Below are positions 832 to 54,917 of a DNA stretch of 64,000 nucleotides, in pieces. The notes under the pieces are model-generated. The model did no database searches. It saw only the letters and a list, made by a program, of their open reading frames with translations, and had not been told where the DNA came from. This DNA is from a virus. The stretch is from positions 3,205-67,204 of IMG/VR virus record IMGVR_UViG_3300025466_000029; one strand, given 5' to 3'. Within the stretch, counting starts at the first letter, position 1. The number at the start of each line of letters is the position of its first letter. The position numbers were made by a program, and so were the translations under genes.

Positions 832-1128
832 ATGGATTTGGCGACACAATTAATGATGATGGCTGTTCGAGTACACAACAGCTTATCAGTGGAGCAAACA
901 GATATGTTTAGTAAAGTGGTTTATAAGATTGACGACCACAAGTATAAAGTTGAAAGTACCAACACAGACGGCAAGCTAGATAGGATTCAATACTATAAAA
1001 GTCTAGATGCCATGCCTGATAACTTAGGCGATAAAGTAAAACAGTTAATGTGGACGGGTACTAATGACCAAACAATCACCGACGAGCTTGGGGTGCGAAT
1101 CGGTGATAATATTTTTTGGATTATCTAG
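832..1128 (+). CDS. hypothetical protein
   Basis: ORF in operon with GGAGGAG RBS. Confidence 0.65.
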   Translation: MDLATQLMMMAVRVHNSLSVEQTDMFSKVVYKIDDHKYKVESTNTDGKLDRIQYYKSLDAMPDNLGDKVKQLMWTGTNDQTITDELGVRIGDNIFWII

Positions 1129-1138
1129 GAGAATGATA

Positions 1139-6972: not shown

Positions 6973-7002
6973 GGTTCCTGCTGTTTATATAAGGAGAATG
7001 AT

Positions 7003-7398
7003 ATGGCTGTTACAATCGATAAGTTGGTTGCTATTCATCGTAAGATGGAAGCGGCTATGGCTGAATATCAAGCCAAGATTGACGAGATTGAAGAACAGCG
7101 CCAAGAAGTTCGCAATACGATTCTAGAAATTATGAAGGAACAAAAACTAGAATCAGTGCGTACTGACCACGGCACTGTTACCAAAGGAGTCAAAGATAGA
7201 TACTGGTCAAATGACTGGGCGGCATTATCTCAATACATTATTGAGCACGGTGCTGTAGGGTTACTGCAACAACGTATCCATGAAACAAATATGCGTGAAT
7301 GGATTGCCGCGCATCCGAATGATTTTCCACCTAGTCTGAACATCGACAGGGAGTTTGGAATTACAATCCGTAAACCATCAACAAAGAAGGAGCTGTAA
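7003..7398 (+). CDS. conserved phage replication-region protein (coiled-coil N-terminus)
   Basis: AAGGAG RBS; SVRTDHGTV...W; typical position before the SSB-like gene. Confidence 0.7.
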   Translation: MAVTIDKLVAIHRKMEAAMAEYQAKIDEIEEQRQEVRNTILEIMKEQKLESVRTDHGTVTKGVKDRYWSNDWAALSQYIIEHGAVGLLQQRIHETNMREWIAAHPNDFPPSLNIDREFGITIRKPSTKKEL

Positions 7399-7587: not shown

Positions 7588-7598
7588 AGGAGAATGAA

Positions 7599-8534
7599 AT
7601 GGCAACAGAACTATCATTATTTAGTGGTAATGCAGTACCAGCCCACATCGCTAATCGTGAATTAAGTAAAGCGACCTTAGCGCTAGCCAGTGCAGGTACT
7701 ACTACAAAACGTATCTCTATCGAAGGCGGTGTATTCCGCATGATGGTAGGCGGTAAAGAGATTGCTAAGAACACAGACCGTTCAATGAATGTAGCTATCG
7801 TTAGCACAGCACCAGCGAACAGTCGTATCTATTATGACCCAGCAGTTCCATATGTACGTGGTCAAGCATCTGCACCGACTTGCTCATCAACAGATGGCGT
7901 TAAACCAAACCCAGGCACTAAGTCACCACAAGCGGCATCATGCGCTACATGCCCACAGAACATCTCAGGTTCAGGTAATGGTGAATCACGTGCTTGCCGT
8001 TACCAACGTCGCCTAGCAGTTGTGCTTGAAGGTGATATGTCAGGTGATGTGTACCAAGTTATCTTACCAGCGACATCTATCTTTGGTCGTGGTCAAGGCA
8101 CACAACAATTGCCATTAGAAGCCTATGCTCGTATGTTGCATGGTAACCGTGTTGGTGTTGACTCAGTAGTGACTAAGATGGAATTTGATACAGACTCATC
8201 TACACCTAAATTGGTATTCTCACCAGTACGTTTCTTGGAAGAGAATGAGCAAGCTATTGTAGACCGTCAATCTGATACACCTGAGGCAGAACACGCAATT
8301 GGTTTGAACGCATATCAAACTGATACAGCATCAAGTGCACCAGCTATCGCGGCGCCAAAACCTACTCCTGTAGTGGATACTACAGCGGCACCTAAACAAT
8401 CAGGTTTCCAACCAGTAGCGGCACCAGTGGCAGATGAAGAAGAAGCTATCCCTGAACCAGTCAAGGCTACACCAGTTGATGCAGATGCACGTTCTGCGAA
8501 AATTGCAAATGTACTAGACGCATGGGGTGACTAG
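7599..8534 (+). CDS. putative ssDNA-binding/annealing protein
   Basis: RISI.GG.F, C.S.DG..P, CATCPQN, RAC; Pro/Ala-rich acidic tail ending WGD. Confidence 0.65.
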   Translation: MATELSLFSGNAVPAHIANRELSKATLALASAGTTTKRISIEGGVFRMMVGGKEIAKNTDRSMNVAIVSTAPANSRIYYDPAVPYVRGQASAPTCSSTDGVKPNPGTKSPQAASCATCPQNISGSGNGESRACRYQRRLAVVLEGDMSGDVYQVILPATSIFGRGQGTQQLPLEAYARMLHGNRVGVDSVVTKMEFDTDSSTPKLVFSPVRFLEENEQAIVDRQSDTPEAEHAIGLNAYQTDTASSAPAIAAPKPTPVVDTTAAPKQSGFQPVAAPVADEEEAIPEPVKATPVDADARSAKIANVLDAWGD

Positions 8535-8546
8535 TTTTATAATTCG

Positions 8547-8578
8547 TACACCTGCCCTCTTGGGTAGGTGTATTTTTT
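8547..8578 (+). terminator. intrinsic terminator
   Basis: TACACCTGCCC-TCTT-GGGTAGGTGTA followed by a T-run. Confidence 0.8.
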
Positions 8579-8597
8579 ACGCCTTCGGAGAACAACA

Positions 8598-8771: not shown

Positions 8772-11702
8772 ATGAATACGCTTATTAATAGCGTGGTGCC
8801 TTCTATTGGGACCTACTGCCTCACTACCATTCAAGGTAAAGCGATTGTACAAACCTTTTACGACAGTAAAGATGTACTCGTAGCCGCTGGTATTGACGCG
8901 TCAGCGCAAGGTAAAAACGCATACTATGCTATGGCATCGTTCAAAGATGCAAGCACACGCACACAAGATAATGTGTTGCGCCTCAAAGCGTTTTGGCTTG
9001 ACGTAGACTGCAAGAACAAAGACCCCCTAAAAGACTACGCAAACAAACAAGATGGTATCCTTGCCATCCAAAACTTCTGCGCACGTCACTCGTTCCCTCG
9101 TCCTACTATCGTTGACTCAGGCAATGGCTGGCATGTTTATTGGATTTTAGACACCGAAGTTACAAAAGATGAATGGCAACCTGTTGCCGACAAACTAAAG
9201 TCATTATGTTTGAATGATGGCTTACGCATTGACCCAGCATGTACAGCGGATAGCGCTCGGATTTTACGTATCCCAACCACAATGAACTATCGCTTTGACC
9301 CACCATCCTCAGTTGATTTAGTGATGGAAGGTAAGCCTGTTATGTTCGATGCCTTCAAGGGTTTGATTGACCTAGGCTTCGCGACACTGAATATAAAGCC
9401 TACACTGAAAATTGCTGGTACACCTACAAAGAAAGAAATGAGTGCTGTCACTAAGGCATTGATTAACAATTCAACTTCATCATTTAAAAAGATTATGAAG
9501 CGTAGCTGTGCAGGTAACGGATGCGAACAGTTGTTTCATGGTGTGACTGAACAAGCTACTATTGATGAACCTTTTTGGAGGGCTGTGCTGTCTGTAGCAC
9601 AACATTGCCATGATAACGATACAGCAATACACTTGGCTTCTAATCAGCATCCTGACTATGACTTCGATGCTACTGTGGCGAAGGCTGAACAAACAAAAGG
9701 TCCGTATACTTGTGCTACGTTTGATTCTCTGCGTGGTAATGTATGCCATAACTGCCCTAGTTTTAATAAGATTACTAGCCCAATCCAGTTAGGTACAGAA
9801 GTCCTTGCAGCCACTGCGCCAGTAACGGTATCTACTGCACCAGCACCAGCGCCTATTCAAGTAGCACAAGTAGCACAAGTAGCACATCAAGAAGAATTAG
9901 CGGACATAGAGAAAATTGAACCAGTTGATACAGCAAAGATTGATGCTTCACTTGCAGCTTTTTATAAGGACAAAGACAAGGTCACAATCCCCATCCCGCC
10001 TAAACCGTATCTACGAGGGCAGAATGGTGGGGTATATAAACAAACTAAATTAGAGGACGGCACGTTCGAAGACGTAATGATTTATCAAAACGACTTCTAT
10101 GCGTATGCTCGTTTAAGAGACCCCGATGAGGGACAGGTTTTGGCATGTAGACTGCACTTGCCATTAGACGGTGTTAGAGTATTTAACATCCCATTAAAAT
10201 CAGTAGGTTCGAGAGACAAGCTGAGAGAAATAATCTGCAGTCAAGGTGTAGCGGCTAACGACAAAAAGATAGCGGAGTTAAGCAACTACTTATTAGCATT
10301 AACAACGGAGATTGAAACTATGCAACATGAAGAAAAAGCAAGAACCCAAATGGGTTGGCAAGAAGATGGTACGTTTGTACTAGGCGCACGTGAGTACTCT
10401 AAGAATGGTATTCGCAATTGCCCACCATCAAATGCCACAACTAACTACCAAGCTATGTTCCGTATGGAAGGTGATATGGCTAACTGGCGCAGGGTGGTTG
10501 ATGTATACAATGCCCCAGGATTTGAAGTCCACCAGTTTATATTCTACTTGGCGCTAAGTTCACCACTACTACGAGCAATGGGGCATCCAGGGATGTTGAC
10601 TACGCTTATCAGTGATGAGTCAGGTATTGGTAAAACAACTTTAGGTATGTTGTGCAACAGCGTATGGGGTCACCCACGAGAAATGCTTTCTATGCCACAC
10701 GATACAATCAATGCAACAGTTAACCGCATGGGTGTATTCAACAGCGTATCGCTATTTCTAGATGAGTTTACTAACAAGACACCTGAAGTATGTAGTGACA
10801 TTGTTTATATGGCTACGATGGGTCGTGGTAAGAACCGCAGTACTATCACTGGTGTAGAGCGTGTGAACAACACGACATGGAATCTAAACTCATTTGCTAC
10901 AGCCAATGCTGCATTACGTGATAAGTTAGGTTCATTAAAGGCATCTGCTGAAGGTGAGAACATGCGTCTGTTTGAGTTTGATATGCGTGGTACCCCTGTA
11001 CTACCTAAAGAGATTGCAGATACTATATTCCCATTGATGCAAACAAACTTCGGTATCGGTGGTCACTTCTTGGCATCATGGTTGGTTGAGAACGTTGATA
11101 ATCTACGTCCGATGGTAGAGCGTGTACAACGTAAGATGGATTTGAAATTCAAGTTCACTAGCAAGGAACGTAACTGGTCTATGAGCGTAGCTTGTGCATA
11201 TACAATCGCTTACGTGGCTAAAGAATTAAAGATTCATGACTTCCCTATCCAAGAAAACATTGATGCAATGGTTAAACAAATTGACCGTATGCGTGGTGAA
11301 GTAGAACAAAGCGTTACTCATTTCGATGCGTTGATTGCAGACTTCTTGGTAGAGAACCATAGCTATATCCTAGTAGTTGATGGCTTACCTGATGCTAATG
11401 GTTTACAAGCACTGCCGCGTAATAGAAGCATCAACAAAATCGTAGCGCGATATGAACCCGATACTGGCAAGTTGTATGTGGCTGCCAAAGCGTTACGCGA
11501 CTATTGCGTAGACCGTCAGTTCTCATTTAACAGCTTGATTGCATTATCTAAAGCAGGTCTAGGTAACAAGCGCTTATCAGCTGGGTCAGGTGTTGTAGCA
11601 GGTAATACTCGCATCGTTGAGTTTGATACGAACTTGGTCAACATTGATATGGGTATGTGGCATGACATGGAAGCGGAAGCGGATGATACTCCAGCTGCCT
11701 GA
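8772..11702 (+). CDS. primase-helicase (RepB/AEP-like primase, Cys cluster, DUF927-like and P-loop helicase domains)
   Basis: WLDVD, SGNGWHVYW, RILRIP, GPYTC...C..CP, GW...FV, Walker A SGIGKT, Walker B LDE. Confidence 0.88.
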   Translation: MNTLINSVVPSIGTYCLTTIQGKAIVQTFYDSKDVLVAAGIDASAQGKNAYYAMASFKDASTRTQDNVLRLKAFWLDVDCKNKDPLKDYANKQDGILAIQNFCARHSFPRPTIVDSGNGWHVYWILDTEVTKDEWQPVADKLKSLCLNDGLRIDPACTADSARILRIPTTMNYRFDPPSSVDLVMEGKPVMFDAFKGLIDLGFATLNIKPTLKIAGTPTKKEMSAVTKALINNSTSSFKKIMKRSCAGNGCEQLFHGVTEQATIDEPFWRAVLSVAQHCHDNDTAIHLASNQHPDYDFDATVAKAEQTKGPYTCATFDSLRGNVCHNCPSFNKITSPIQLGTEVLAATAPVTVSTAPAPAPIQVAQVAQVAHQEELADIEKIEPVDTAKIDASLAAFYKDKDKVTIPIPPKPYLRGQNGGVYKQTKLEDGTFEDVMIYQNDFYAYARLRDPDEGQVLACRLHLPLDGVRVFNIPLKSVGSRDKLREIICSQGVAANDKKIAELSNYLLALTTEIETMQHEEKARTQMGWQEDGTFVLGAREYSKNGIRNCPPSNATTNYQAMFRMEGDMANWRRVVDVYNAPGFEVHQFIFYLALSSPLLRAMGHPGMLTTLISDESGIGKTTLGMLCNSVWGHPREMLSMPHDTINATVNRMGVFNSVSLFLDEFTNKTPEVCSDIVYMATMGRGKNRSTITGVERVNNTTWNLNSFATANAALRDKLGSLKASAEGENMRLFEFDMRGTPVLPKEIADTIFPLMQTNFGIGGHFLASWLVENVDNLRPMVERVQRKMDLKFKFTSKERNWSMSVACAYTIAYVAKELKIHDFPIQENIDAMVKQIDRMRGEVEQSVTHFDALIADFLVENHSYILVVDGLPDANGLQALPRNRSINKIVARYEPDTGKLYVAAKALRDYCVDRQFSFNSLIALSKAGLGNKRLSAGSGVVAGNTRIVEFDTNLVNIDMGMWHDMEAEADDTPAA

Positions 11703-11889
11703 TGGGGTGGAGATGGAAGTGCCTATCGAACACATGATTGTGAAAGATAGCGTTTTCATCCCTACACTAAAACCTACGGAATTGAGAGTGATAGTAAAGC
11801 GGATTGCTAGGGAACTAGAAATTACTATAGAAATGCGTAATGCAGTTGAAGAAGGTTACTTAGGCTTAATGGTATGGAGAGTCCAATAG
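11683..11889 (+). CDS. small hypothetical protein
   Basis: SVFIP...G.MVWRV pattern; overlaps the end of the primase. Confidence 0.65.
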   Translation: MILQLPDGVEMEVPIEHMIVKDSVFIPTLKPTELRVIVKRIARELEITIEMRNAVEEGYLGLMVWRVQ

Positions 11890-11923
11890 TGTCCATTAAT
11901 GTCTTATACAGTATCATAATGTA

Positions 11924-11952
11924 TTGATTTGTATTCATCTGTATAGTATAGT
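11924..11952 (+). promoter_or_regulatory. sigma70-type promoter of putative sRNA
   Basis: TTGATT-17 bp-TATAGT with no credible ORF downstream. Confidence 0.6.
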
Positions 11953-11957
11953 TCGCC

Positions 11958-12032
11958 TTGACAGTTGTTGCATTCTGTCATTCTCCGTAATACCCCTTAA
12001 ACCCTCAGCCTCTCCAGCTGGGGGTTTTTTTT
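11958..12032 (+). ncRNA. putative trans-acting sRNA with anti-RBS seeds
   Basis: Bounded by a promoter and a terminator; 5' hairpin TGACAG/CTGTCA; TCATTCTCCGTAATACCCCTTA is complementary to several phage RBSs. Confidence 0.6.
11999..12032 (+). terminator. intrinsic terminator at the convergence of the replication and virion arms
   Basis: AACCCTCAGC-loop-GCTGGGGGTT followed by a T-run. Confidence 0.8.
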
Positions 12033-15000
12033 ATTCGTTTTCTGCTCTAATTTTTCTAATTGGCATTGCTCTTAAGGTAGCTTCAACGTTCGCCATTAGC
12101 TCATTAACCCGTTGTCGTTTCTCTTCAGATGATAGGTTAGGGTCGTTCTCAATAATATTTCGAGCGTGACTTACATCATTCAACTGAGCGTGAAGCGCTT
12201 CTACAGCATCATGCATACCAATCAATGCGCGTTTCTTAGGGTCGGCTAGATATTCTTGTAGCTTCTCAGGGTTTTGTTCAGCCGCTAATTGGTTAGCAGT
12301 GTTGTATGCCTTATCGGACATGTCACGAAGTGCGTAGTACTCTTCAGCGTTACGACCGCCAACAGTTTTTTGTTGGAATGAACTGATGATAGGAAGTTTA
12401 TCACTAGCCATCTTATTGCTACCCATAGATACGTCAGCTAATTGAAGTAGCGCACCAGCAGATGTACCACCGATTGCATTAAGGATGTAATCAATCTGTA
12501 TTGGGGATTGACCAGTAATCTCACCAACTTCTCTAGCTAATCCACTTGTACTTGCTGTGTATTGGAACTGAGGGTCTATACCTTGTAAACGTTGACTAAC
12601 AATCGGTAAGTCTGAGAAGAAGCTCTTATTAAGCATTAACTCAACAGCAGGTGTTACACCATACACAGCGGCAGGTGGTAGATACCCAGCAGCAAACGAT
12701 TGTAGTAGACCTTGGCGTAAGCGTTTAGCTGACTCAGGGCTATCTGTACCTTCTTGCAGTACGTAATCTGTAATGCGTTCAGGTACTACTTTAGCCAAGA
12801 AGCCAACATCGGTAGGTACAGGAAGCATAAACTTAGTGCCTGGGATTAAGAAGTTACGGTCAGTGATTACACCTTTTTGGTCTTCATAATCATCATCGCC
12901 TGACATCGCCATAGTGTATGCAATAACAAGACCCGCGTACATTGCCATGTTACCCCAGTAGGCTTTAGCGGCAGCTTTACGAGCTTGCATAGAGTTACCA
13001 CGACCAACCATACTGCGATAGTTAACATCCATACCTTGAAGGTATGCACCCAAGAACGGAATAGTTTGTTTTAGCGTGTGCATTAACTCGCTTGTACCAG
13101 CCTTTTGGAAGTTGATAATTTCACGAGCGCGCGTAGCGGCAAGCGTTTCATCACCAGTTTCTGCTAGTGTTTGACGATAGATACCTAAACGCACTGCTAG
13201 GTCGGCACTGTAAGCTAACTTATGTAAGAAGTTATATGCTGGGCTCTGTACCCATTTATCAGTAATTGTTTTTGGTTTTTCACCTACACCAAACTGAGTA
13301 GCACGACCACGAGTAGTATCCATCGCAGTAAAGTCAGCACCACCAACAACGCCGTGTTGCATTAGAGTTTGGATGTCTGCATGTTGACCACGGAACGCTT
13401 CGCCTGATAGGAATGATTTATAGATATGACCCATCATAGCCCAAGGATGTTTAACACCAGCTTCAACAAAGGCACGTTGTGAGTCCATTACTACTTGGCG
13501 TAATGGGAAGGCAGGGAACAACACAATGCCAGCACGTAGAGTACCAAGCGCTTTACCAATAGCTTTCATTGTAGGGCTATTTATACCGCGTACTGATTGG
13601 AATGCAGCTAGGTCATATGGGTTATCAACAGTCCAGAACGTAGGCTTACCATCGGTATAGGTCATTACCACGTGAGCAGGATTAACACCGCCTGGACGAC
13701 CTGCGTGGCGCGTTGCTGTACCCATAGTGGTCATCGTTTCGAGCGCACTATTAGCAGTGTGGTTAGATACACCTGAACGTACACACCAGCCAATCATTTG
13801 TGCCATGTTCTCAAGCATGTCATTAACTTCTTCAGTGCCACCGACAAGGGCTTTCATCTGTTGCAAGTCGACCATCTTACCCATGTTGCCAAGTCCAGGC
13901 ATTACATCTTGGTAGTCTTTCAAGCGTAGCCACGGTGCGTATGAGTCATCTTTTAGGAAGGCATCAGCCTTCTCTTTAGTTAAAAACCCAGCTTTACGTA
14001 GGAACTTAACCATCTGATTCTTAGAACCAATGAACTCATTTTGCATAGCACGTAGTTCAGGGAAAGCATTAAACGCTGCCATTGCCGCATTGATTTGTGC
14101 TTGAGTTGGAACCATACGTGGGTCTTTTAACCAATTCTCAGGCCACTGGTCTTTAGGCAATGTATCAATAATAGCTTTGGCACGGTAGTGATAGAACGAA
14201 TCGGTAATCAATTTACGTGCTTGCTCTACACCAATCTTATCGCTTAACTTTTGAGCGTGGCGGAAAATGTTGTCTACACTGTACTTACCTTGTTTAGCTT
14301 GGATAGCACCGTTACCTAAGATGTCAATGTCACCAAAAGTAAATACTGAGTTGATGTAGTTGTTAGTATTATTAGCCGCACTCAATAACAAGTCAGCGCG
14401 CATTTGACCATTAACATTATAGAAAGCACCATCATTATGGTCTTGGATAGCTGCAGATAGATGAGCCGCCTTATCAATACCTCTGACACGGACACGGTTA
14501 ATCATATCTTCAATCATACCTAGCGCACCAGTAGGACTCTTATAAGCTTGAGCAACAAAGTTCTGTGCCGCTTGTGCAGGTGTAATAGTTGTTTTAGGTG
14601 CTGACTGAGCAAGCGTACCTGACATACCAGCGATGAACTGATTAGCTTTAGCTTGCGCTTGAGGGTCAATATGAAGGGCAAAACCTGCATTCCCTGCCGT
14701 CTGTTTCACTGCTGATATATCAGCATTTAATATGCCTTCAGATGCACTTAATACTTCTGACAATGCTGTGTTAGCACTAGCAGGTAAACCTAATATGTTG
14801 CGGATAGTATTAACGAACTCAGACCATAGGGATTGATTAGCGTTATATGGGATAGATTCCAAATACTCTTGCATGTCTTTATCAGTTAAAGCCCATGTCA
14901 CCATCTCATGCAAGTTGTCTAATGCATTATTGTTTCCTGCTAAAGCATCCTGCTCAAATTTAGTGAGTTGGGTTTTACCTAATTTAGATTCTGCTACACG

Positions 15001-19491: not shown

Positions 19492-20631
19492 TTATTCCTT
19501 ATAGCTCAACAATTCATGTAAGTGCATTTCATCAATGCCTGTACCACCACGCTTACTAATTTCTTTAGTGCTACCACCCTTTTTAGCGCCAGCTAATTTT
19601 GATACCCCAACGGCACCAGCACCTAACGCACCAATTTGAGAAGCAAGACCAGGCTGTGCTTGGTATGTTTGAGTCGTTGTAGACTGCATTGGTAAACCGT
19701 GTAGCAAATTGCTGATGTTGCCCAACTGCATCATTGGGTATTGTTGTGCAGTCGCATAGTTTTGGATTGCTTGGTTAATCATATTTTGTTGGGCTGTTTG
19801 TTGTTGTGCGCCCATTGTATTTTGTGTACCTAAGATACCTTGTTGTGCGGCAAGTTGATTAGAACCTAGATTGCCTAATGTACCAGCCGCAGTGTTAGCT
19901 TGACCCAAACCTTGAAGCGCAGTTTGTTGTCCTTGTAGCCCTAACCCAGCACCATACTGCATTGCGTTTTGTGCTTGTTGATATGCAGTATTGTAACCTT
20001 GACCGATAGCTTGTTGTTGCGCATTCAATGCATTTTGCTGTGCTAAGTTTTGAGCAAGAGCACTACGAGTACCACCGAACGCACCTGAACCTGTAGCTTG
20101 TGAAGCCGCTTGTGTCGAAGCAATATTGCCTTGTTGGGCTAACTGATTAAGCTGTGGTTGTAATGATTGGCTAACATAAGGGTTCATGAACGCACCAACC
20201 GCATATGGGTTAGTCGCCATCTGATTGTATTGATTGCCAGCTTGTGAAGCTTGACCAGCAACCCCTAGAGAACCCATACCCGCTGCGCCAGCTAGACCAG
20301 TAGCTTGACCATATTGGCCAGGCAATTGTAAGTTAGCTGCTTCATTAAATGATTGTTCTTGTAACGGAGAGAATGCGGCTTGATAGTCCTGCATGTTTGT
20401 ACTGTATGGTACGTATGGTTGGAACCCTGATACATTGCCTGTTGTAGGGTCAGTAGTATATACCTGTTGTTGCGCTGCGCCGAGCATTGACTCAACGTAT
20501 GGTTGTGCATAGGCAGGGATAGTATTTTGGTTAACCGTCGTTGTTGTAGGAGCTGATTGTCCACCGCCGCCACCTACTCCAAAAGTAAACTGGTCAATCA
20601 TAAACCATTTAAGGGCTTTTAATAAACTCAT
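19492..20631 (-). CDS. internal virion/DNA transfer protein
   Basis: GGGGG N-terminus, FMNPY, GAFGG.R, Q-rich. Confidence 0.65.
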   Translation of the reverse strand: MSLLKALKWFMIDQFTFGVGGGGGQSAPTTTTVNQNTIPAYAQPYVESMLGAAQQQVYTTDPTTGNVSGFQPYVPYSTNMQDYQAAFSPLQEQSFNEAANLQLPGQYGQATGLAGAAGMGSLGVAGQASQAGNQYNQMATNPYAVGAFMNPYVSQSLQPQLNQLAQQGNIASTQAASQATGSGAFGGTRSALAQNLAQQNALNAQQQAIGQGYNTAYQQAQNAMQYGAGLGLQGQQTALQGLGQANTAAGTLGNLGSNQLAAQQGILGTQNTMGAQQQTAQQNMINQAIQNYATAQQYPMMQLGNISNLLHGLPMQSTTTQTYQAQPGLASQIGALGAGAVGVSKLAGAKKGGSTKEISKRGGTGIDEMHLHELLSYKE

Positions 20632-39244: not shown

Positions 39245-39598
39245 ATGCCGTATAAAGACCCAGAACGTAGACGTGCCAAAGCAAGAGAGCTGTATAAGGC
39301 TAACCCCGCGCCAAGCATAGCCAGAGCAGCAAAGACAAAACGCAGGGCGCGAGCGGAGTTCGCTGAATTTAAAGCCCGACTTTCCTGTGTTCAATGTGGC
39401 GAAAACCACCCAGCAACTTTAGATTTCCACCATCACACCCCCCACCCCGACAATATCAAGATTAATGAGTTAGTTCGTTCAGGCAGATTAGGTTTTGCTA
39501 TGGAAGAAATTATGAATAAGTGTATTGTCCTCTGCAGCAACTGCCACCGAAAACATCACTACGAAGAAAATAAAGCTAAAAAAGATGGTGCCCAGTGA
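39245..39598 (+). CDS. HNH endonuclease (opposite to the late strand)
   Basis: CVQCGE.HPA.LDFHH...KCIVLCSNCHRK.H. Confidence 0.85.
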   Translation: MPYKDPERRRAKARELYKANPAPSIARAAKTKRRARAEFAEFKARLSCVQCGENHPATLDFHHHTPHPDNIKINELVRSGRLGFAMEEIMNKCIVLCSNCHRKHHYEENKAKKDGAQ

Positions 39599-39660
39599 GA
39601 GAATCGAACTCCCGATATCCTCATTACAAGTGAGGCGCATTACCACTCTGCTAACTGGGC
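39586..39660 (-). tRNA. tRNA-Thr(UGU)
   Basis: GCCCAGT/ACTGGGC acceptor stem, anticodon arm CCTCA-CT-TGT-AA-TGAGG, T-loop GTTCGAT, encoded CCA. Confidence 0.93.
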
Positions 39661-48653: not shown

Positions 48654-48904
48654 CATATAGCAGCTTGCATGTAATATTTTGCTTTTTACTCTATGCAAAC
48701 CGCATTGCTTGTAACGTATGCGATACAAAACCCGTAGCTTGTAACGAACTCCAAAAAATTTTACACAAAAAATTTTAGACCCACTCATATAAAGTCAGGG
48801 GGTGTCATGACATGAGAATAGAAAGATGCTTGTCTAAAACAGAGAGGGGAGGGGAAGGTCTCAATTCCAGGAAAAATGGGGGTAGGGGGTGCGCCTGTAC
48901 CATG

Positions 48905-48918
48905 CGGACAAATGTCCG
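48905..48918. promoter_or_regulatory. palindromic operator-like site 1
   Basis: CGGACAAATGTCCG. Confidence 0.7.
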
Positions 48919-48965: not shown

Positions 48966-49023
48966 GGACACATCGACCAAGCGCAAACATGCAGGCGGCG
49001 ATTAACTTAATAAGGGGTTTACC

Positions 49024-49572
49024 ATGTCTAAGCAATCTTCAGTAGCAGTTGTAGTAACAGTTTCACAAGAGCAGTTCGACCAAGCGCTTGCTGGTATCGC
49101 TACCAATGGCGCAAGTATTAAAGAGCAGTTCGTAACAGCGGCGCAATTCATCGCTCAAGCGACTAACAAGCGCGACCAAGATGCGGCAAAGAAAAAGCTG
49201 GCTGTCGCATACCAAAAGCTTCAAGCGACATTATCAGGCAAAGAATTCAAGTTTGACAGCGCGACCAAGTGGGTGCAACGTAGCGTGAAAGGCTTGAGCG
49301 GCAATACCAAGTTTAAATGGCTGGTAAGTAAAACCACGAAAGCGACAAAGGCAAGAGCGGCGCGAGCAGGTGGCAAAGTAGAAGCGACAACAGCACCAGC
49401 CGCACCAGCACCAGCGAAGCCAACCAGCATTGAGCAATTGCGTAACGCGCTCATTGCAAAAGAAAAGAAAAACCTAGACGATTTTGTGAATGTAATTCCT
49501 AGCGGCAAAATCAAAGAATTTGAGCAAGCTTACGCGGCTTTCATTCAAACACTTGAAATCATCCTAGCATAA
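49024..49572 (+). CDS. first early protein, Ala/Lys-rich, function unknown
   Basis: TAAGGGG RBS; promoter upstream and hairpin downstream. Confidence 0.75.
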   Translation: MSKQSSVAVVVTVSQEQFDQALAGIATNGASIKEQFVTAAQFIAQATNKRDQDAAKKKLAVAYQKLQATLSGKEFKFDSATKWVQRSVKGLSGNTKFKWLVSKTTKATKARAARAGGKVEATTAPAAPAPAKPTSIEQLRNALIAKEKKNLDDFVNVIPSGKIKEFEQAYAAFIQTLEIILA

Positions 49573-50034: not shown

Positions 50035-50048
50035 CGGACAAATGTCCG
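50035..50048. promoter_or_regulatory. palindromic operator-like site 2
   Basis: CCCATT-CGGACAAATGTCCG-CGTGGG. Confidence 0.7.
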
Positions 50049-51368: not shown

Positions 51369-51396
51369 TTGACATAAGAACTCATCAGAGTATAAT
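51369..51396 (+). promoter_or_regulatory. early sigma70 promoter
   Basis: TTGACA-16 bp-TATAAT. Confidence 0.75.
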
Positions 51397-51440
51397 TATA
51401 GATGTTCGGTTAAGACATGACCGACAAACCCTTTCCCACG

Positions 51441-51454
51441 CGGACATTTGTCCG
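51441..51454. promoter_or_regulatory. palindromic operator-like site 3
   Basis: CCCACG-CGGACATTTGTCCG-AGTGGG-TTTTT. Confidence 0.7.
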
Positions 51455-51491
51455 AGTGGGTTTTTAATCAGATATTACGGAGAACAATATC

Positions 51492-53081
51492 ATGTGTAAC
51501 AAATGCGTAGTACCAGCAACACAACTACTCTCACGTTGGGCAGAGTTAGGCGATAGACCTTATCGCCATGTAGTCATCCGCGACCTCTTAAAAGAGCAAC
51601 ATCAATCAGAAAACCGCGAGCATTGGTCACATGCTCGTCACTCATGGGTAACAGACTATAAACCGCGCAACCAGCAAGTAGGTCACGACCTAGCTAAAGC
51701 CAAAGCCATTGTCCATAAACAGGCAACGCGCGAACCTGTTACCCTACTAGAGATGGCTAGCTATACCACATATTTTAAGTCGCTAGAGCATATCATCCCT
51801 AACGTAGGTCACAAGCTAGAGCCAGCGTACATGGCAACCCAAACCAAGTTCCGCGATGGTACATGGGAAGCGATTGACATCATGAACAAGCTACATCCAT
51901 ATCCTAACAATACAGCTACGTCATCGCATGACGCGTATGTAGACGCGCAGACCGCGTTCATCACAATGAACCGCTTGCACAACGTACACATATCAACCGA
52001 GGACATCAATCAGATAGCCTATTATCCAACGCTTGCTCACATGCGCGCTGGTCGCGAGGTTCGTACCCGATTAGGTCGCTATCTTACCAAGTATCAGTCC
52101 GCGCTACGCTTGACCGAGAATGACATCAAGAACATGACAGAGAAACACGCAAGCAATATGCGCTCTCGTGGTGGCTGGGCTGTAGAGTTCGTGGCGCACG
52201 ATGACCCCGATGGTTGGTATAACGTGTATTCAGGCGGTGTACAGAGTTGTATGCAGAGCGAGCCAGCAGTACGTATCTATGCGCATGAGCATAGTGTGTT
52301 GCGCCTAGCGTATGTCAAAGCTGGTAACGATATTATTGCGCGTTGTATTGTGCGTGAGGATGGCGATGCCAAAGGCTGGTTGCGTGTGTACCCTGACCCG
52401 AATGGTCATGCAGAAGGTCGCTATCTCTTGGACTATCTCAAGACACATGGCTATGACCAGCATACCAACCTTGACGGCGCACTGTTACAGTTTATAGAGG
52501 AACGCGAGGGTATCGTGTGTCCATACCTAGACTACGGCAGTGGTGGTGACCAAACTGTGGGCGAAACACATCATAATGGCAAGCGGTATCTTGTAGCTGG
52601 CGGTGGTGACTACAGCGCGACACAGACTAACGGCTACGTTGAGAATAATATGACATCGTGTGATGAGTGTGGTGATAGCATTGACGATGACGAAACGACT
52701 TACGTTGAGCATGATGGTTGCACTGTGTGCGAGTGTTGCCTCAGCAATAACTATACCTATGCGTATGGCTCACGTTATCAAGACTACTTCCCACAAGACG
52801 AGTGCGTACAAGTCGGCGAGGATTATTATTGGGTTGATACCATTGACAACCATGACATCGGTCAGTGCGAGCGTACCTATGACTACCATCCTAACGAGGA
52901 ATTAGTATCTACCTATGATGGTGTGTACCACATGGACTACGTTGTTAGTGTTGACCGCCATACTGACTATGAGTATGTGTATATGGACAACGTGCATACG
53001 TTATCAGATGGTTCAACGTGTCATCAAGATGATGCAGACCATTACCAAATGGAAATTGATATTGAGGCTGGTGCAGTATAA
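51492..53081 (+). CDS. early protein with SCM/PYLD domain and acidic Cys-rich C-terminus
   Basis: QSCM...IIARCIV...RVY...PYLD; CDECG, CECC. Confidence 0.7.
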   Translation: MCNKCVVPATQLLSRWAELGDRPYRHVVIRDLLKEQHQSENREHWSHARHSWVTDYKPRNQQVGHDLAKAKAIVHKQATREPVTLLEMASYTTYFKSLEHIIPNVGHKLEPAYMATQTKFRDGTWEAIDIMNKLHPYPNNTATSSHDAYVDAQTAFITMNRLHNVHISTEDINQIAYYPTLAHMRAGREVRTRLGRYLTKYQSALRLTENDIKNMTEKHASNMRSRGGWAVEFVAHDDPDGWYNVYSGGVQSCMQSEPAVRIYAHEHSVLRLAYVKAGNDIIARCIVREDGDAKGWLRVYPDPNGHAEGRYLLDYLKTHGYDQHTNLDGALLQFIEEREGIVCPYLDYGSGGDQTVGETHHNGKRYLVAGGGDYSATQTNGYVENNMTSCDECGDSIDDDETTYVEHDGCTVCECCLSNNYTYAYGSRYQDYFPQDECVQVGEDYYWVDTIDNHDIGQCERTYDYHPNEELVSTYDGVYHMDYVVSVDRHTDYEYVYMDNVHTLSDGSTCHQDDADHYQMEIDIEAGAV

Positions 53082-53087
53082 CCCACG

Positions 53088-53101
53088 CGGACAAATGTCC
53101 G
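53088..53101. promoter_or_regulatory. palindromic operator-like site 4
   Basis: CCCACG-CGGACAAATGTCCG. Confidence 0.7.
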
Positions 53102-54903: not shown

Positions 54904-54917
54904 CGGACATTTGTCCG
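54904..54917. promoter_or_regulatory. palindromic operator-like site 5
   Basis: CCCACT-CGGACATTTGTCCG-AGTGT. Confidence 0.7.

What the first reader, a model, noticed from the sequence alone, without database searches (positions are those of the whole stretch)
11924..12032. Phage sRNA whose seed matches the ribosome-binding sites of early and replication genes
Seen: promoter TTGATT-17-TATAGT, then ~75 nt with no ORF, then an intrinsic terminator. Between a 5' hairpin (TGACAG/CTGTCA) and the terminator lies TCATTCTCCGTAATACCCCTTA. Nt 11981-11992 are perfectly complementary (12 nt) to TATTACGGAGAA, the RBS of the 529-aa early gene at 51492. Nt 11992-11999 match TAAGGGGT, the RBS of the first early gene at 49024. 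Nt 11978-11986 match GGAGAATGA at the RBSs of 1139, 7003 and 7599. Shorter (C)GGAGAA matches precede 8598, 53126, 55218, 56518, 60303, 62026 and 63556. The leftward late-gene RBSs I checked read GGAGT, GGAGC, GGAGAT or GGAAT instead; the one exception is the gene starting at 20631. Known precedent: RNA-based phage control by P4 CI and P1 C4. Inference: one trans-acting multi-target sRNA silences a class of genes marked by an extended SD, acting as an early-to-late switch or as immunity in a phage with no visible integrase or CI-type repressor.
Basis: partly seen in the sequence, partly recalled or inferred. Interest (0 to 1): 0.88.

Follow-up and report, generated by a model that had tools for sequence, protein, structure and literature searches.

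The report
Phage small RNA matching ribosome-binding sites
An uncultured freshwater phage and its relatives carry a short, conserved promoter-to-terminator RNA gene whose exposed CU-rich stretch is complementary to the ribosome-binding sites of many of the phage's own early and replication genes, so it may silence them by base pairing, though no one has yet seen the RNA.

Summary
Window 11924-12032 holds a sigma70-like promoter, a 5' hairpin, an unpaired UCAUUCUCCGUAAUACCCCUUA and an intrinsic terminator, at the junction of converging early (+) and late (-) genes. All the listed RBS matches exist.

New here: the unit is conserved at the same place in 12 phage genomes of two clades (primase identity down to about 31%). 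Each has a promoter-like box, an unpaired (A/U)(C/U)UCUC(C/U) core and a terminator. No Rfam family reaches its threshold.

Seven close genomes: 40 of 324 + strand start regions have 8 nt or more of perfect complementarity to their own seed, against 3 of 217 late ones. Flank-shuffled seeds rarely reach this in G000 and G004, but do in G003, G005 and G006. One pairing position covaries: genomes whose RNA reads CUCUCC have GGAGAG in 23 of 52 early RBSs, UUCUCC genomes in 8 of 92.

Against: the 12-nt match is not kept in orthologs (5-12 nt), and TAAGGGGT is not kept at all. Early genes simply have stronger SDs. The distant clade gives weak counts. There are no expression data.

Verdict: probably a trans-acting anti-SD-type sRNA, a phage variant of the bacterial CU-rich double-hairpin sRNAs. 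The temporal-switch role is plausible but unproven. The immunity role is unsupported.

The parts
11716..11889 (+). Last gene of the + (early/replication) block. It encodes a small conserved protein (about 57-62 aa, ending ..GYLGLMVWRVQ) that lies upstream of the RNA unit in the family: directly upstream in 12 loci, about 0.8 kb upstream in L008.
   Evidence: ORF list. Alignment A4 of 12 homologs. AlphaFold model pLDDT 92.8, beta-alpha-beta-beta fold. No PDB fold match with E below 0.1. No Pfam hit.
11924..11952 (+). Sigma70-like promoter TTGATT-17-TATAGT. The start site is inferred at about 11958-11960.
   Evidence: 9 of 12 consensus positions. A box with a 17-nt spacer stands at the equivalent place in 7 of 7 close genomes. 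The distant clade has TGaTAnnnn (extended -10-like) 6-7 nt before the hairpin. No start site has been mapped.
11959..11980 (+). 5' hairpin: TGACAG, a 10-nt loop, CTGTCA.
   Evidence: Fold. The stem is present in 6 of 8 aligned close sequences; the loop differs in L011; L003 has another hairpin and L008 none. In the distant clade the stem sequence was required by the search pattern, so its conservation there is not independent.
11978..12001 (+). Single-stranded seed UCAUUCUCCGUAAUACCCCUUAAA. The conserved core AUUCUCC is at 11980-11986.
   Evidence: Unpaired in the MFE fold. Mean unpaired probability of the core is 0.73-1.00 in 12 of 12 genomes. CTC is invariant in alignment A3 of 16 sequences.
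11999..12032 (.). Intrinsic terminator: an 11-pair stem followed by T8. It is shared by the converging transcription units. The T run overlaps the stop codon (12031-12033, - strand) of the 1903-aa gene.
   Evidence: 4 of 13 predicted pairs of the consensus fold (5' hairpin and terminator) show compensatory changes, all 4 in the terminator stem.
51473..51484 (+). Candidate target: RBS of the 529-aa gene, with 12 nt complementary to 11981-11992.
   Evidence: Orthologs match their own seeds by 8 (G002), 5 (G003), 11 (G006) and 9 nt (G004).
6993..7001 (+). Candidate target: RBS GGAGAATGA of the 131-aa gene (DUF7307, Pam3 gp33-like), the first gene after promoter-like site 6944.
   Evidence: The ortholog RBS follows the cognate seed in most of the 12 genomes (G003).
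7589..7597 (+). Candidate target: RBS GGAGAATGA of the 311-aa gene.
   Evidence: G006 reads GGAGAATAGA against the seed UCUAUUCUCC (10 nt). G012 reads AAGGAGAGA against UCUCUCCUU (9 nt).
1128..1136 (+). Candidate target: RBS GGAGAATGA of the 144-aa gene at 1139.
   Evidence: the G003 ortholog keeps the 9-nt match.
49011..49018 (+). TAAGGGGT at the RBS of the first early gene (49024). It matches 11992-11999, but the match is not conserved.
   Evidence: Orthologs in G002, G003 and G006 show no match.

Best explanation
The region encodes a small non-coding RNA of about 73 nt here and 54-90 nt in relatives. It is made from its own sigma70-type promoter, or in the distant clade possibly cut from the 3' end of the upstream mRNA. 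A 5' hairpin and a terminator hairpin with a U tail would stabilise it.

Between the two hairpins lies a permanently single-stranded CU-rich stretch, (A/U)(C/U)UCUCC plus a variable tail. It resembles the anti-Shine-Dalgarno end of 16S rRNA.

The RNA would act in trans. It would pair with the SD and its flanks, GGAGAA(UGA) or (UA)CGGAGAA, on mRNAs of a subset of the phage's own rightward early and replication genes. The best candidates are the 131-aa, 311-aa, 144-aa and 529-aa genes. Pairing would block 30S binding and so lower their translation. Leftward late genes, whose RBSs read AAGGAGU or AAGGAU, would escape.

Shown: the anatomy, the conservation, the exposed seed, the strand-specific complementarity, and covariation at one pairing position.

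Inferred: that the RNA is made, that it pairs, that pairing represses, and when it acts.
For: 1. Conserved unit. The unit sits at the same junction in 7 close genomes and in a distant clade found by a pattern scan (14 loci). Five of those records were fetched; their primase is 31-42% identical and their GC is 0.40-0.58.

2. Promoter. A box with a 17-nt spacer is present in 7 of 7 close genomes. In the distant clade TGaTAnnnn lies 6-7 nt before the hairpin.

3. Structure. 4 of 13 predicted pairs of the consensus fold, all 4 in the terminator stem, show compensatory changes. The core is unpaired in 12 of 12 genomes, with probability 0.73-1.00.

4. Seed modules multiply. L039 carries CUCCGUAAUA twice. 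L072 and L111 carry extra CUCUCC copies.

5. Strand-specific matches. Start regions with a perfect match of 8 nt or more to the cognate seed:
- + strand: 10/56, 4/32, 7/42, 2/44, 5/50, 12/62, 0/38.
- - strand: 0/45, 1/36, 1/18, 0/45, 0/6, 0/25, 1/42.

6. Flank-shuffle control, with CUCC held fixed. Shuffles reaching the observed count: 3/1000 (G000), 12/1000 (G004), 35/1000 (G001), 45/1000 (G002).

7. Covariation at one position.
- G001's RNA reads CUCUCC, and GGAGAG stands in 5 of 17 of its + RBSs, against 7 of 157 in the six other close genomes (p=0.0025).
- Three orthologous RBSs changed A to G in G001.
- Over 12 genomes, C-class RNAs go with 23 G: 29 A, and U-class RNAs with 8 G: 84 A (p=1.3e-6; 1e-5 without the near-duplicate G011). 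Late-strand RBSs show no such link (p=0.59).

8. Seed permutation. Permuting seeds among genomes reaches the cognate score in 15 of 20,000 trials.

9. Orthologs follow the seed. The RBSs of the 131-aa and 311-aa gene orthologs follow the local seed: GGAGAATGA, GGAGAATAGA, AAGGAGAGA, GGAGAGT.

10. Location of the longest matches. In G000, 6 of the 7 + strand matches of 9 nt or more lie at an RBS.
Against: - No transcript has been seen. No RNA run holds the stretch, so neither the promoter nor the RNA ends are verified.
- + strand start regions also bind a generic anti-SD yardstick better than - strand ones (p 0.03 to 4e-5). Part of the asymmetry is therefore just SD strength.
- The flank-shuffle control is not significant in G006 (117/1000) or G003 (185/1000). 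G005 has 0 of 38 matches.
- In the distant clade the counts are small: + 2/25, 1/30, 0/8, 1/31, 2/16. Shuffles reach them in 42/500, 209/500, 238/500 and 160/500 trials.
- The cognate seed ranks first in only 5 of 12 genomes.
- Covariation at the base 5' of GGAG appears only for the G class (10/35 against 17/197). It is absent for A and T, and is a non-significant trend for C (17/131 against 7/101, p=0.19).
- The 12-nt and TAAGGGGT matches are not conserved.
- The genomes are related, so the pooled p-values overstate independence. Roughly 3-5 independent contrasts exist.
- Gene starts come from my own crude caller, which itself rewards SD-like sequences.
Confidence: 0.5

Rival explanations
1. 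The RNA is the same, but its main targets are host mRNAs. On this reading it is a phage copy or mimic of the bacterial CU-rich 'double-hairpin' sRNAs that sit on the RBSs of metabolic genes. The matches to phage RBSs would be a by-product of any anti-SD-like seed.
For: The architecture equals that described for the RF02278 sRNAs: 57-67 nt, two hairpins, and CU-rich unpaired stretches complementary to RBSs (passages read in PMC5688073). RF02278 is among the best sub-threshold Rfam matches: 18 bits in the window and 24.2 bits in L083. Known phage sRNAs such as VpdS and PreS act on host genes (review PMC12197685, section 2). The seed tails vary a lot between close phages.
Against: Seed and phage-RBS covariation and the cognate-versus-permuted excess are not expected if phage RBSs are bystanders. 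The host is unknown, so no host target could be examined. Model R1 found nothing convincing in 151 Burkholderiales genomes.
Confidence: 0.22
2. The region has no trans-acting function. It would be the 3' untranslated end of the early operon together with a bidirectional terminator. The 5' hairpin and pyrimidine tract would serve as a stability, processing or termination-efficiency element, and the SD complementarity would be incidental.
For: It lies exactly where converging units must terminate, and the T run overlaps the stop codon of the 1903-aa gene. In the distant clade only 6-11 nt separate the upstream stop codon from the hairpin. The promoter here is only a 9-of-12 match, and such matches are no more frequent than in shuffles (11 found, 17.8 expected).
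Against: A terminator does not need a sequence-conserved, always-unpaired YUCUCC core, duplicated seed modules, a -10-like box at a fixed distance in all genomes, or covariation with RBS flanks.
Confidence: 0.13
3. A protein-binding element. The hairpin and CU tract, as RNA or as DNA, would be bound by a phage or host protein. Candidates are the conserved small protein encoded just upstream, or a pyrimidine-binding host factor such as S1 or Hfq. The RNA would then act as an operator, decoy or sponge rather than by pairing with mRNAs.
For: There is strict synteny with a small, confidently folded protein (pLDDT 92.8) across both clades. The GACAG/CTGTC stem is sequence-conserved in 6 of 8 close sequences with no covariation. 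Tandem GTGTTGAT-like repeats overlap the -35 in L002, L003, L004 and L039.
Against: The fold search gave no significant match; the weak R3H, KH and ACT-like hits all have E above 0.1. Stem conservation in the distant clade was imposed by the search pattern. L003 and L008 lack that stem yet keep the CU core. A protein-binding reading does not predict RBS covariation.
Confidence: 0.1
4. An immunity RNA in the manner of P1/P7 c4 or P4 CI. It would keep a carrier-state or plasmid prophage silent and exclude superinfecting relatives, with the variable seed tails defining immunity types.
For: No integrase, resolvase or HTH_3 repressor was found in the complete record. Seed tails differ between close relatives, as heteroimmune c4 RNAs do (review PMC12197685, section 7).
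Against: No C4-family hit in Rfam at the gathering threshold or at E up to 10. No partition or plasmid-maintenance evidence was sought or seen. In one scan of genome contigs with the primase, the only relatives were a 3-kb contig and a 25%-identical locus, so there is no sign of prophage copies. The conserved part of the seed is the generic SD complement, which is not type-specific.
Confidence: 0.04

Closest known systems
Betaproteobacterial 'double-hairpin' / 'toxic small RNA' family (Rfam RF02278; ncS03, ncS05, ncS27 and ncS62 of Burkholderia cenocepacia), with the similar NmsR sRNAs of Neisseria
   Same: Short RNAs (57-67 nt in the processed form) with two hairpins, the second a terminator. 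[quoted passage not shown] RF02278 is among the top sub-threshold Rfam matches.
   Different: The scores of 18 and 24.2 bits are far below the gathering score of 50, so this is not a member. It is phage-encoded, single-copy, and at a fixed place between the early and late blocks. Its candidate targets are the phage's own genes. The seed lies between the hairpins.
P1/P7 c4 RNA (and P4 CI RNA), phage antisense RNAs of immunity
   Same: A phage-encoded small RNA that acts in trans on phage mRNA around a ribosome-binding site to block translation (review PMC12197685, section 7).
   Different: c4 targets one operon (ant) through two specific loop sequences and is part of a lysogenic immunity system. 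Here the seed is a generic anti-SD type, many genes are candidates, the phage shows no lysogeny genes, and there is no Rfam C4 match. That P4 CI belongs with c4 is recalled, not tested here.
Hfq-dependent phage sRNAs VpdS (VP882) and PreS (lambda)
   Same: Trans-acting sRNAs of phages with a terminator and U tail. VpdS affects both phage and host mRNAs (review PMC12197685, section 2).
   Different: Those come from temperate phages of cultured hosts, their targets were mapped by experiment, and their seeds are not anti-SD-like. No sequence relation was found. Hfq dependence is untestable here.
T4 RegA translational repressor (protein)
   Same: The proposed logic is the same: one phage product shuts down translation of a class of early mRNAs by occupying their start regions. 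This is recalled from general knowledge. The T4 review PMC3014915 was seen only in a search listing.
   Different: RegA is a protein. Here the effector would be an RNA that reads an SD 'flavour'.

Membership tests
Rfam RF02278 Betaproteobacteria toxic sRNA (double-hairpin sRNAs) | Covariance-model score at or above the gathering score (50 bits) | tested here: not met
   18 bits at window 11980-12032. 24.2 bits in L083. No hit at the gathering threshold in the whole window.
Rfam RF02278 Betaproteobacteria toxic sRNA (double-hairpin sRNAs) | Two hairpins with CU-rich unpaired stretches complementary to RBSs | tested here: met
   Folds of 12 family members. Complementarity counts. Family description taken from passages of PMC5688073.
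Rfam RF02278 Betaproteobacteria toxic sRNA (double-hairpin sRNAs) | Chromosomal, with three to five dispersed copies per Burkholderia genome | tested here: not met
   One copy per phage record. Model R1 gave only weak, unconvincing hits in 14 of 151 Burkholderiales genomes.
C4 antisense RNA family (P1/P7 c4, P4 CI) | Match to the Rfam family model | tested here: not met
   Absent from the matches at the gathering threshold and at E up to 10 on 11850-12100.
C4 antisense RNA family (P1/P7 c4, P4 CI) | Part of a lysogenic or plasmid-prophage immunity system with an antirepressor target | tested here: inconclusive
   No integrase, resolvase or HTH_3 domain. No antirepressor was sought. No prophage copies turned up in one genome-contig scan.
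Hfq-type trans-acting sRNA (functional class) | Rho-independent terminator with a U tail, and a single-stranded seed | tested here: met
Hfq-type trans-acting sRNA (functional class) | Own transcript with defined ends; binding to Hfq; target regulation | not testable with these tools
   No RNA run holds the stretch. The host is unknown.
Intrinsic bidirectional terminator | GC-rich stem followed by a T run on one strand, with an A/T stretch before it that gives a T run on the other strand | tested here: met
   Stem 11999-12027, then T8. On the - strand the stem is followed only by TTTAA, so termination leftward would be weaker.

The most novel reading that the evidence does not exclude
A virulent phage lineage uses one abundant anti-SD-like RNA as a class-specific translational silencer, an RNA counterpart of T4 RegA. 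On this reading early and replication genes are tagged by an extended SD flavour, GGAGAA(UGA) or CGGAGAA, that pairs with the RNA. Late genes carry AAGGAGU or AAGGAU and escape. The RNA and the tags co-evolve: UUCUCC goes with GGAGAA and CUCUCC with GGAGAG. Duplicated seed modules widen the target set. This would be a temporal switch written in ribosome-binding sites.
Probability: 0.28. Interest if true: 0.85.

Novelty: new variant of a known kind. Interest (0 to 1): 0.62.

Why it matters
Phage-encoded sRNAs are known mostly from temperate phages of model hosts. Each has one or a few mapped targets.

If this reading is right, it would be different in three ways:
- It is a conserved RNA family in uncultured, apparently virulent freshwater phages.
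- It would regulate a whole temporal class of the phage's own genes through their Shine-Dalgarno regions.
- It shows visible co-evolution of regulator and targets.

That would add post-transcriptional class control by RNA to the repertoire of phage developmental switches. It would also give a simple, portable design: an extended SD flavour paired with a matching RNA.

Even on the most cautious reading, this is a new, well-delimited non-coding RNA family, not in Rfam 15, with 12 or more distinct members and fixed synteny.

Tried and rejected
DATABASE AND FAMILY SEARCHES
- Rfam at the gathering threshold on the whole window found only tRNA-Thr. At E up to 10 there were only sub-threshold hits.
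- blastn of 11700-12300 against 'phages' gave no match.
- tblastn of the primase against 'phages' gave a best hit of 27% identity (Pseudomonas phage Rollin), so there is no cultured relative.
- The C-terminal 400 aa of the 1903-aa protein, used as an anchor, gave one new distant locus (L054). It does not have the element.
- The metagenome-contig scan gave 2 loci; one of them is the same contig as L039.
- The genome-contig scan gave a 3-kb contig binned with a Saccharibacteria MAG, which has no element, and a 25%-identical locus in Candidimonas. The host remains unknown.
- Model R1 on 151 Burkholderiales genomes gave 16 weak hits in 14 genomes. The 8 I inspected are generic hairpin-plus-terminator sequences; one is a tRNA trailer.

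READINGS REJECTED
- A small ORF on the - strand, GGAGAATGAcagaATG: the peptides differ between genomes, and it lies beyond the late terminator (read from the sequences).
- A conserved + strand ORF: indels of 6 and 10 nt between relatives.

PROTEIN FOLD
- The fold search of the upstream small protein gave nothing with E below 0.1.

EXPRESSION AND POPULATION DATA
- No RNA holder is listed for window 9000-15000.
- Read laying on 4 DNA contig runs showed no substitution between 11692 and 12084 in the one divergent strain, and one T fewer in the T run. This is too little variation to say anything.

TOOLS AND PAPERS
- I did not ask for any supplement. Supplementary Table S1 of review PMC12197685, which lists phage sRNAs, and Table S7 of PMC10914365 could name a similar RNA that I did not see.
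- Not in print as far as these searches go. From them I read sections 2 and 7 of PMC12197685, passages of PMC10914365 and passages of PMC5688073. All other papers I saw as listings only.
Full report
WHAT IS THERE

The window is bases 3205-67204 of a 67,204-bp virus record rated 100% complete.
- Genes run rightward from about 49024 to the window end, and rightward again from the window start to 11889. This block is early and replication: DNA polymerase, helicase, and a DUF927 primase at 8772-11702.
- Genes run leftward from 48646 to 12031. This block is structural and late. Its last gene encodes a 1903-aa protein with an LPD38 domain.

The finding sits in the 141-bp gap where the two blocks converge.
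- TTGATT-17-TATAGT at 11924-11952.
- A hairpin, TGACAG/CTGTCA, at 11959-11980.
- An unpaired UCAUUCUCCGUAAUACCCCUUAAA.
- An 11-pair terminator followed by T8. The T run overlaps the stop codon of the 1903-aa gene on the other strand.

The 75-nt RNA folds to -23.1 kcal/mol (z = -4.1) with the CU-rich stretch fully open. All the quoted RBS matches exist. GGAGAATGA gives 4 hits against 0.39 expected. TATTACGGAGAA, allowing at most 1 mismatch, gives 3 hits against 0.22 expected.

IT IS CONSERVED

This is the main addition to the finding.
- Using the primase as an anchor, I found the same unit downstream of the same small gene in L002, L003/L035, L004/5/6, L039 and L011, and about 1.3 kb further on in L008-10. 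Primase identity runs from 88% down to 58%.
- All 7 distinct genomes have a -35/-10 pair with a 17-nt spacer placed so that the RNA would be 54-90 nt long.
- The core ATTCTCC (TCTCTCC in L002, ATTCTCT in L008) is kept while the tail varies. Four of the 13 predicted pairs of the consensus fold, all four in the terminator stem, show compensatory changes.
- L039 carries the module CUCCGUAAUA twice.

Seventeen of them have a terminator right after the match. Fourteen of those 17 are new phages with the same synteny. In these:
- The small gene ends ..LGVR(I/M)WR.
- Its TGA stop codon lies inside a TGaTAnnnn box that looks like an extended -10.
- After 6-7 nt comes the hairpin, then (A/U)(C/U)UCUCC, then the terminator.

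Five of these records were fetched (G008-G012). Their primase is 31-42% identical to the window's and their GC ranges from 0.40 to 0.58. The core is unpaired in all 12 genomes, with probability 0.73-1.00. L072 and L111 have additional CUCUCC copies. One caveat: in this clade the stem and core were demanded by the search pattern, so their conservation there is not independent evidence.

DOES THE SEED REALLY MATCH EARLY RBSs MORE THAN CHANCE?

I called genes with a simple ORF-plus-SD scorer. It is crude, and I patched one call by hand. I then took positions -25 to -1 of each start.

Start regions with a perfect match of 8 nt or more to the cognate seed in the 7 close genomes:
- + strand: 10/56, 4/32, 7/42, 2/44, 5/50, 12/62 and 0/38. 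Total 40/324.
- - strand: 0/45, 1/36, 1/18, 0/45, 0/6, 0/25 and 1/42. Total 3/217.

Control: keep CUCC fixed and shuffle the seed flanks.
- The observed count is reached in 3/1000 shuffles (G000), 12/1000 (G004), 35/1000 (G001) and 45/1000 (G002).
- It is reached in 117/1000 (G006) and 185/1000 (G003), which is not significant.
- G005 has no match at all.

In the distant clade the counts are small (+ 2/25, 1/30, 0/8, 1/31, 2/16), and shuffles reach them often.

Duplex energies tell the same story, with a warning. In G000 the + median is -8.8 against -6.5 kcal/mol for -, and 12/56 against 0/45 sites are at or below -12. But + start regions also bind a generic anti-SD yardstick better than - ones in every genome (p 0.03 to 4e-5). 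Part of the early/late contrast is therefore simply stronger SDs in early genes. Conditioning on GGAG removes some of this: in G000 the next two bases are AA in 17 of 31 + RBSs and 2 of 13 - RBSs.

COVARIATION

- The 529-aa gene's RBS matches its own seed by 12 nt (G000), 8 (G002), 5 (G003), 11 (G006) and 9 (G004).
- The TAAGGGGT match is absent in all three orthologs found.

Other signals are better.
- G001, whose RNA reads CUCUCC where its close relatives read UUCUCC, has GGAGAG in 5 of 17 + RBSs. The other six close genomes have it in 7 of 157 (p=0.0025).
- The orthologs of the window genes at 7003, 7599 and 60303 each changed GGAGAA to GGAGAG in G001.
- Across all 12 genomes, RNAs with C at that position go with 23 GGAGAG: 29 GGAGAA in + RBSs. 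RNAs with U go with 8: 84 (p=1.3e-6; 1e-5 after dropping the near-duplicate G011). Late RBSs show no link.
- G006's RNA has an inserted U (UCUAUUCUCC), and the RBS of its 311-aa gene reads GGAGAATAGA, a 10-nt match. The junction of its duplicated module (AAUACUCC) matches two RBSs that read GGAGTATT.
- The 131-aa gene's RBS follows the local seed in most genomes: GGAGAATGA, AGGAGAAT, GAGGGAGA, GGAGAGT, AAGGAGAGA.
- Permuting seeds among the 12 genomes reaches the cognate score in 15 of 20,000 trials at 8 nt, and 76 of 20,000 at 7 nt. However, the cognate seed ranks first in only 5 of 12 genomes.

At the base 5' of GGAG, covariation is seen only for the G class (10/35 against 17/197). It is absent for A and T, and only a non-significant trend for C. 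Because the genomes are related, I count roughly three to five independent contrasts, not twelve.

WHAT IT MOST LIKELY IS

It is most likely a small trans-acting RNA with an anti-SD-type seed.
- The anatomy is the standard one for base-pairing sRNAs: a protective 5' hairpin, an open seed, and a terminator with a U tail.
- The best candidate targets in G000 are first genes behind strong sigma70-like promoters: 6944 before the 131-aa gene, 51369 before the 529-aa gene, and 48938 before the first early gene.
- Pairing covers the SD itself, so repression of initiation is the expected outcome.
- When the RNA acts cannot be read from the sequence.
- The phage has no integrase, resolvase or HTH_3 domain and no close prophage relative in one scan. 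It therefore looks virulent, which fits a developmental role better than an immunity role.

COMPARISON WITH WHAT IS KNOWN

No Rfam family reaches its threshold. The nearest in kind are the betaproteobacterial double-hairpin sRNAs (RF02278).
- These are described as 57-67 nt RNAs with CU-rich unpaired stretches that are reverse complements of RBSs, with many predicted targets at start regions (passages of PMC5688073).
- RF02278 is among the top sub-threshold hits here, at 18 and 24.2 bits against a gathering score of 50.
- The element therefore works like that class but is not a member of it.

Phage precedents in the 2025 review (PMC12197685, sections 2 and 7 read) are c4, sar, OOP, VpdS, PreS and others. 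None is described as aimed at a class of the phage's own RBSs. Three full-text searches found no such report. I did not ask for the supplementary tables.

VERDICT

- Its strongest specific claims are not supported: the 12-nt pairing as a conserved interaction, immunity, and a proven switch.
- A host-directed role is the main rival.

Noticed in passing
window 48905-48918, 50035-50048, 51441-51454, 53088-53101, 54904-54917: The 14-nt palindrome CGGACA(AA/TT)TGTCCG occurs five times, all within 6 kb of the early block (0 expected in shuffles). At least four of the five copies lie just upstream of an early promoter or RBS. It could be a set of terminator or processing hairpins, or an operator for an early regulator.
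   Followed up: partly
window 51369-51470: A perfect TTGACA-16-TATAAT promoter is followed by a 68-nt leader with two hairpins, the second followed by a U run (-25.9 kcal/mol, z = -4.2). The leader ends right before the RBS that carries the 12-nt match. It may be a second short promoter-to-terminator unit, or an attenuator in front of the 529-aa gene.
   Followed up: partly
window 11716-11889 and homologs (alignment A4): A 57-62 aa protein lies upstream of the RNA unit in the family: directly upstream in 12 loci of both clades, about 0.8 kb upstream in L008. D, G, F, G, W and R are invariant. The AlphaFold model is confident (pLDDT 92.8, beta-alpha-beta-beta). It has no Pfam family and no significant PDB fold match; the weak hits include R3H and KH domains. 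It may be a partner of the RNA.
   Followed up: partly
L004 7126-7165; L002 7114-7150; L003 7149-7175; L039 6150-6180: Tandem GTGTTGAT-like repeats, 2-3 copies about 10-11 nt apart, overlap the -35 of the RNA promoter in close relatives. The window has TGTAT repeats instead. L003 and L035 also carry GGACGGTAT tandem repeats just upstream. These may be a regulator binding site.
   Followed up: no
window 48660-48750: Three copies of GCTTG(T/C)A(A/T).. (gcTTGTAACG-like) lie about 35 nt apart in the divergent region between the late and early blocks, upstream of early promoter 48938.
   Followed up: no
window 8515-8597: A promoter-like site (TAGACG-17-TATAAT) overlaps a 12-pair terminator hairpin (8546-8573). 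Both lie directly before an RBS that reads CGGAGAA. This terminator-and-restart arrangement resembles the one before the 529-aa gene.
   Followed up: no
G000 bases 453-1640 (before the window start): Four adjacent small genes start behind similar RBSs (AAAGGAAAAGAA..ATG; identical in two of them), which suggests tandem paralogs.
   Followed up: partly
window 39586-39660 (- strand): A tRNA-Thr (UGU) gene lies inside the late block.
   Followed up: no
window 7003-7398: The 131-aa candidate target matches Pfam DUF7307 (Pam3 gp33-like, 27.9 bits against a cut-off of 27) and a PHROG annotated 'minor head protein'. If it is structural, the rightward block is not purely early and replication.
   Followed up: no
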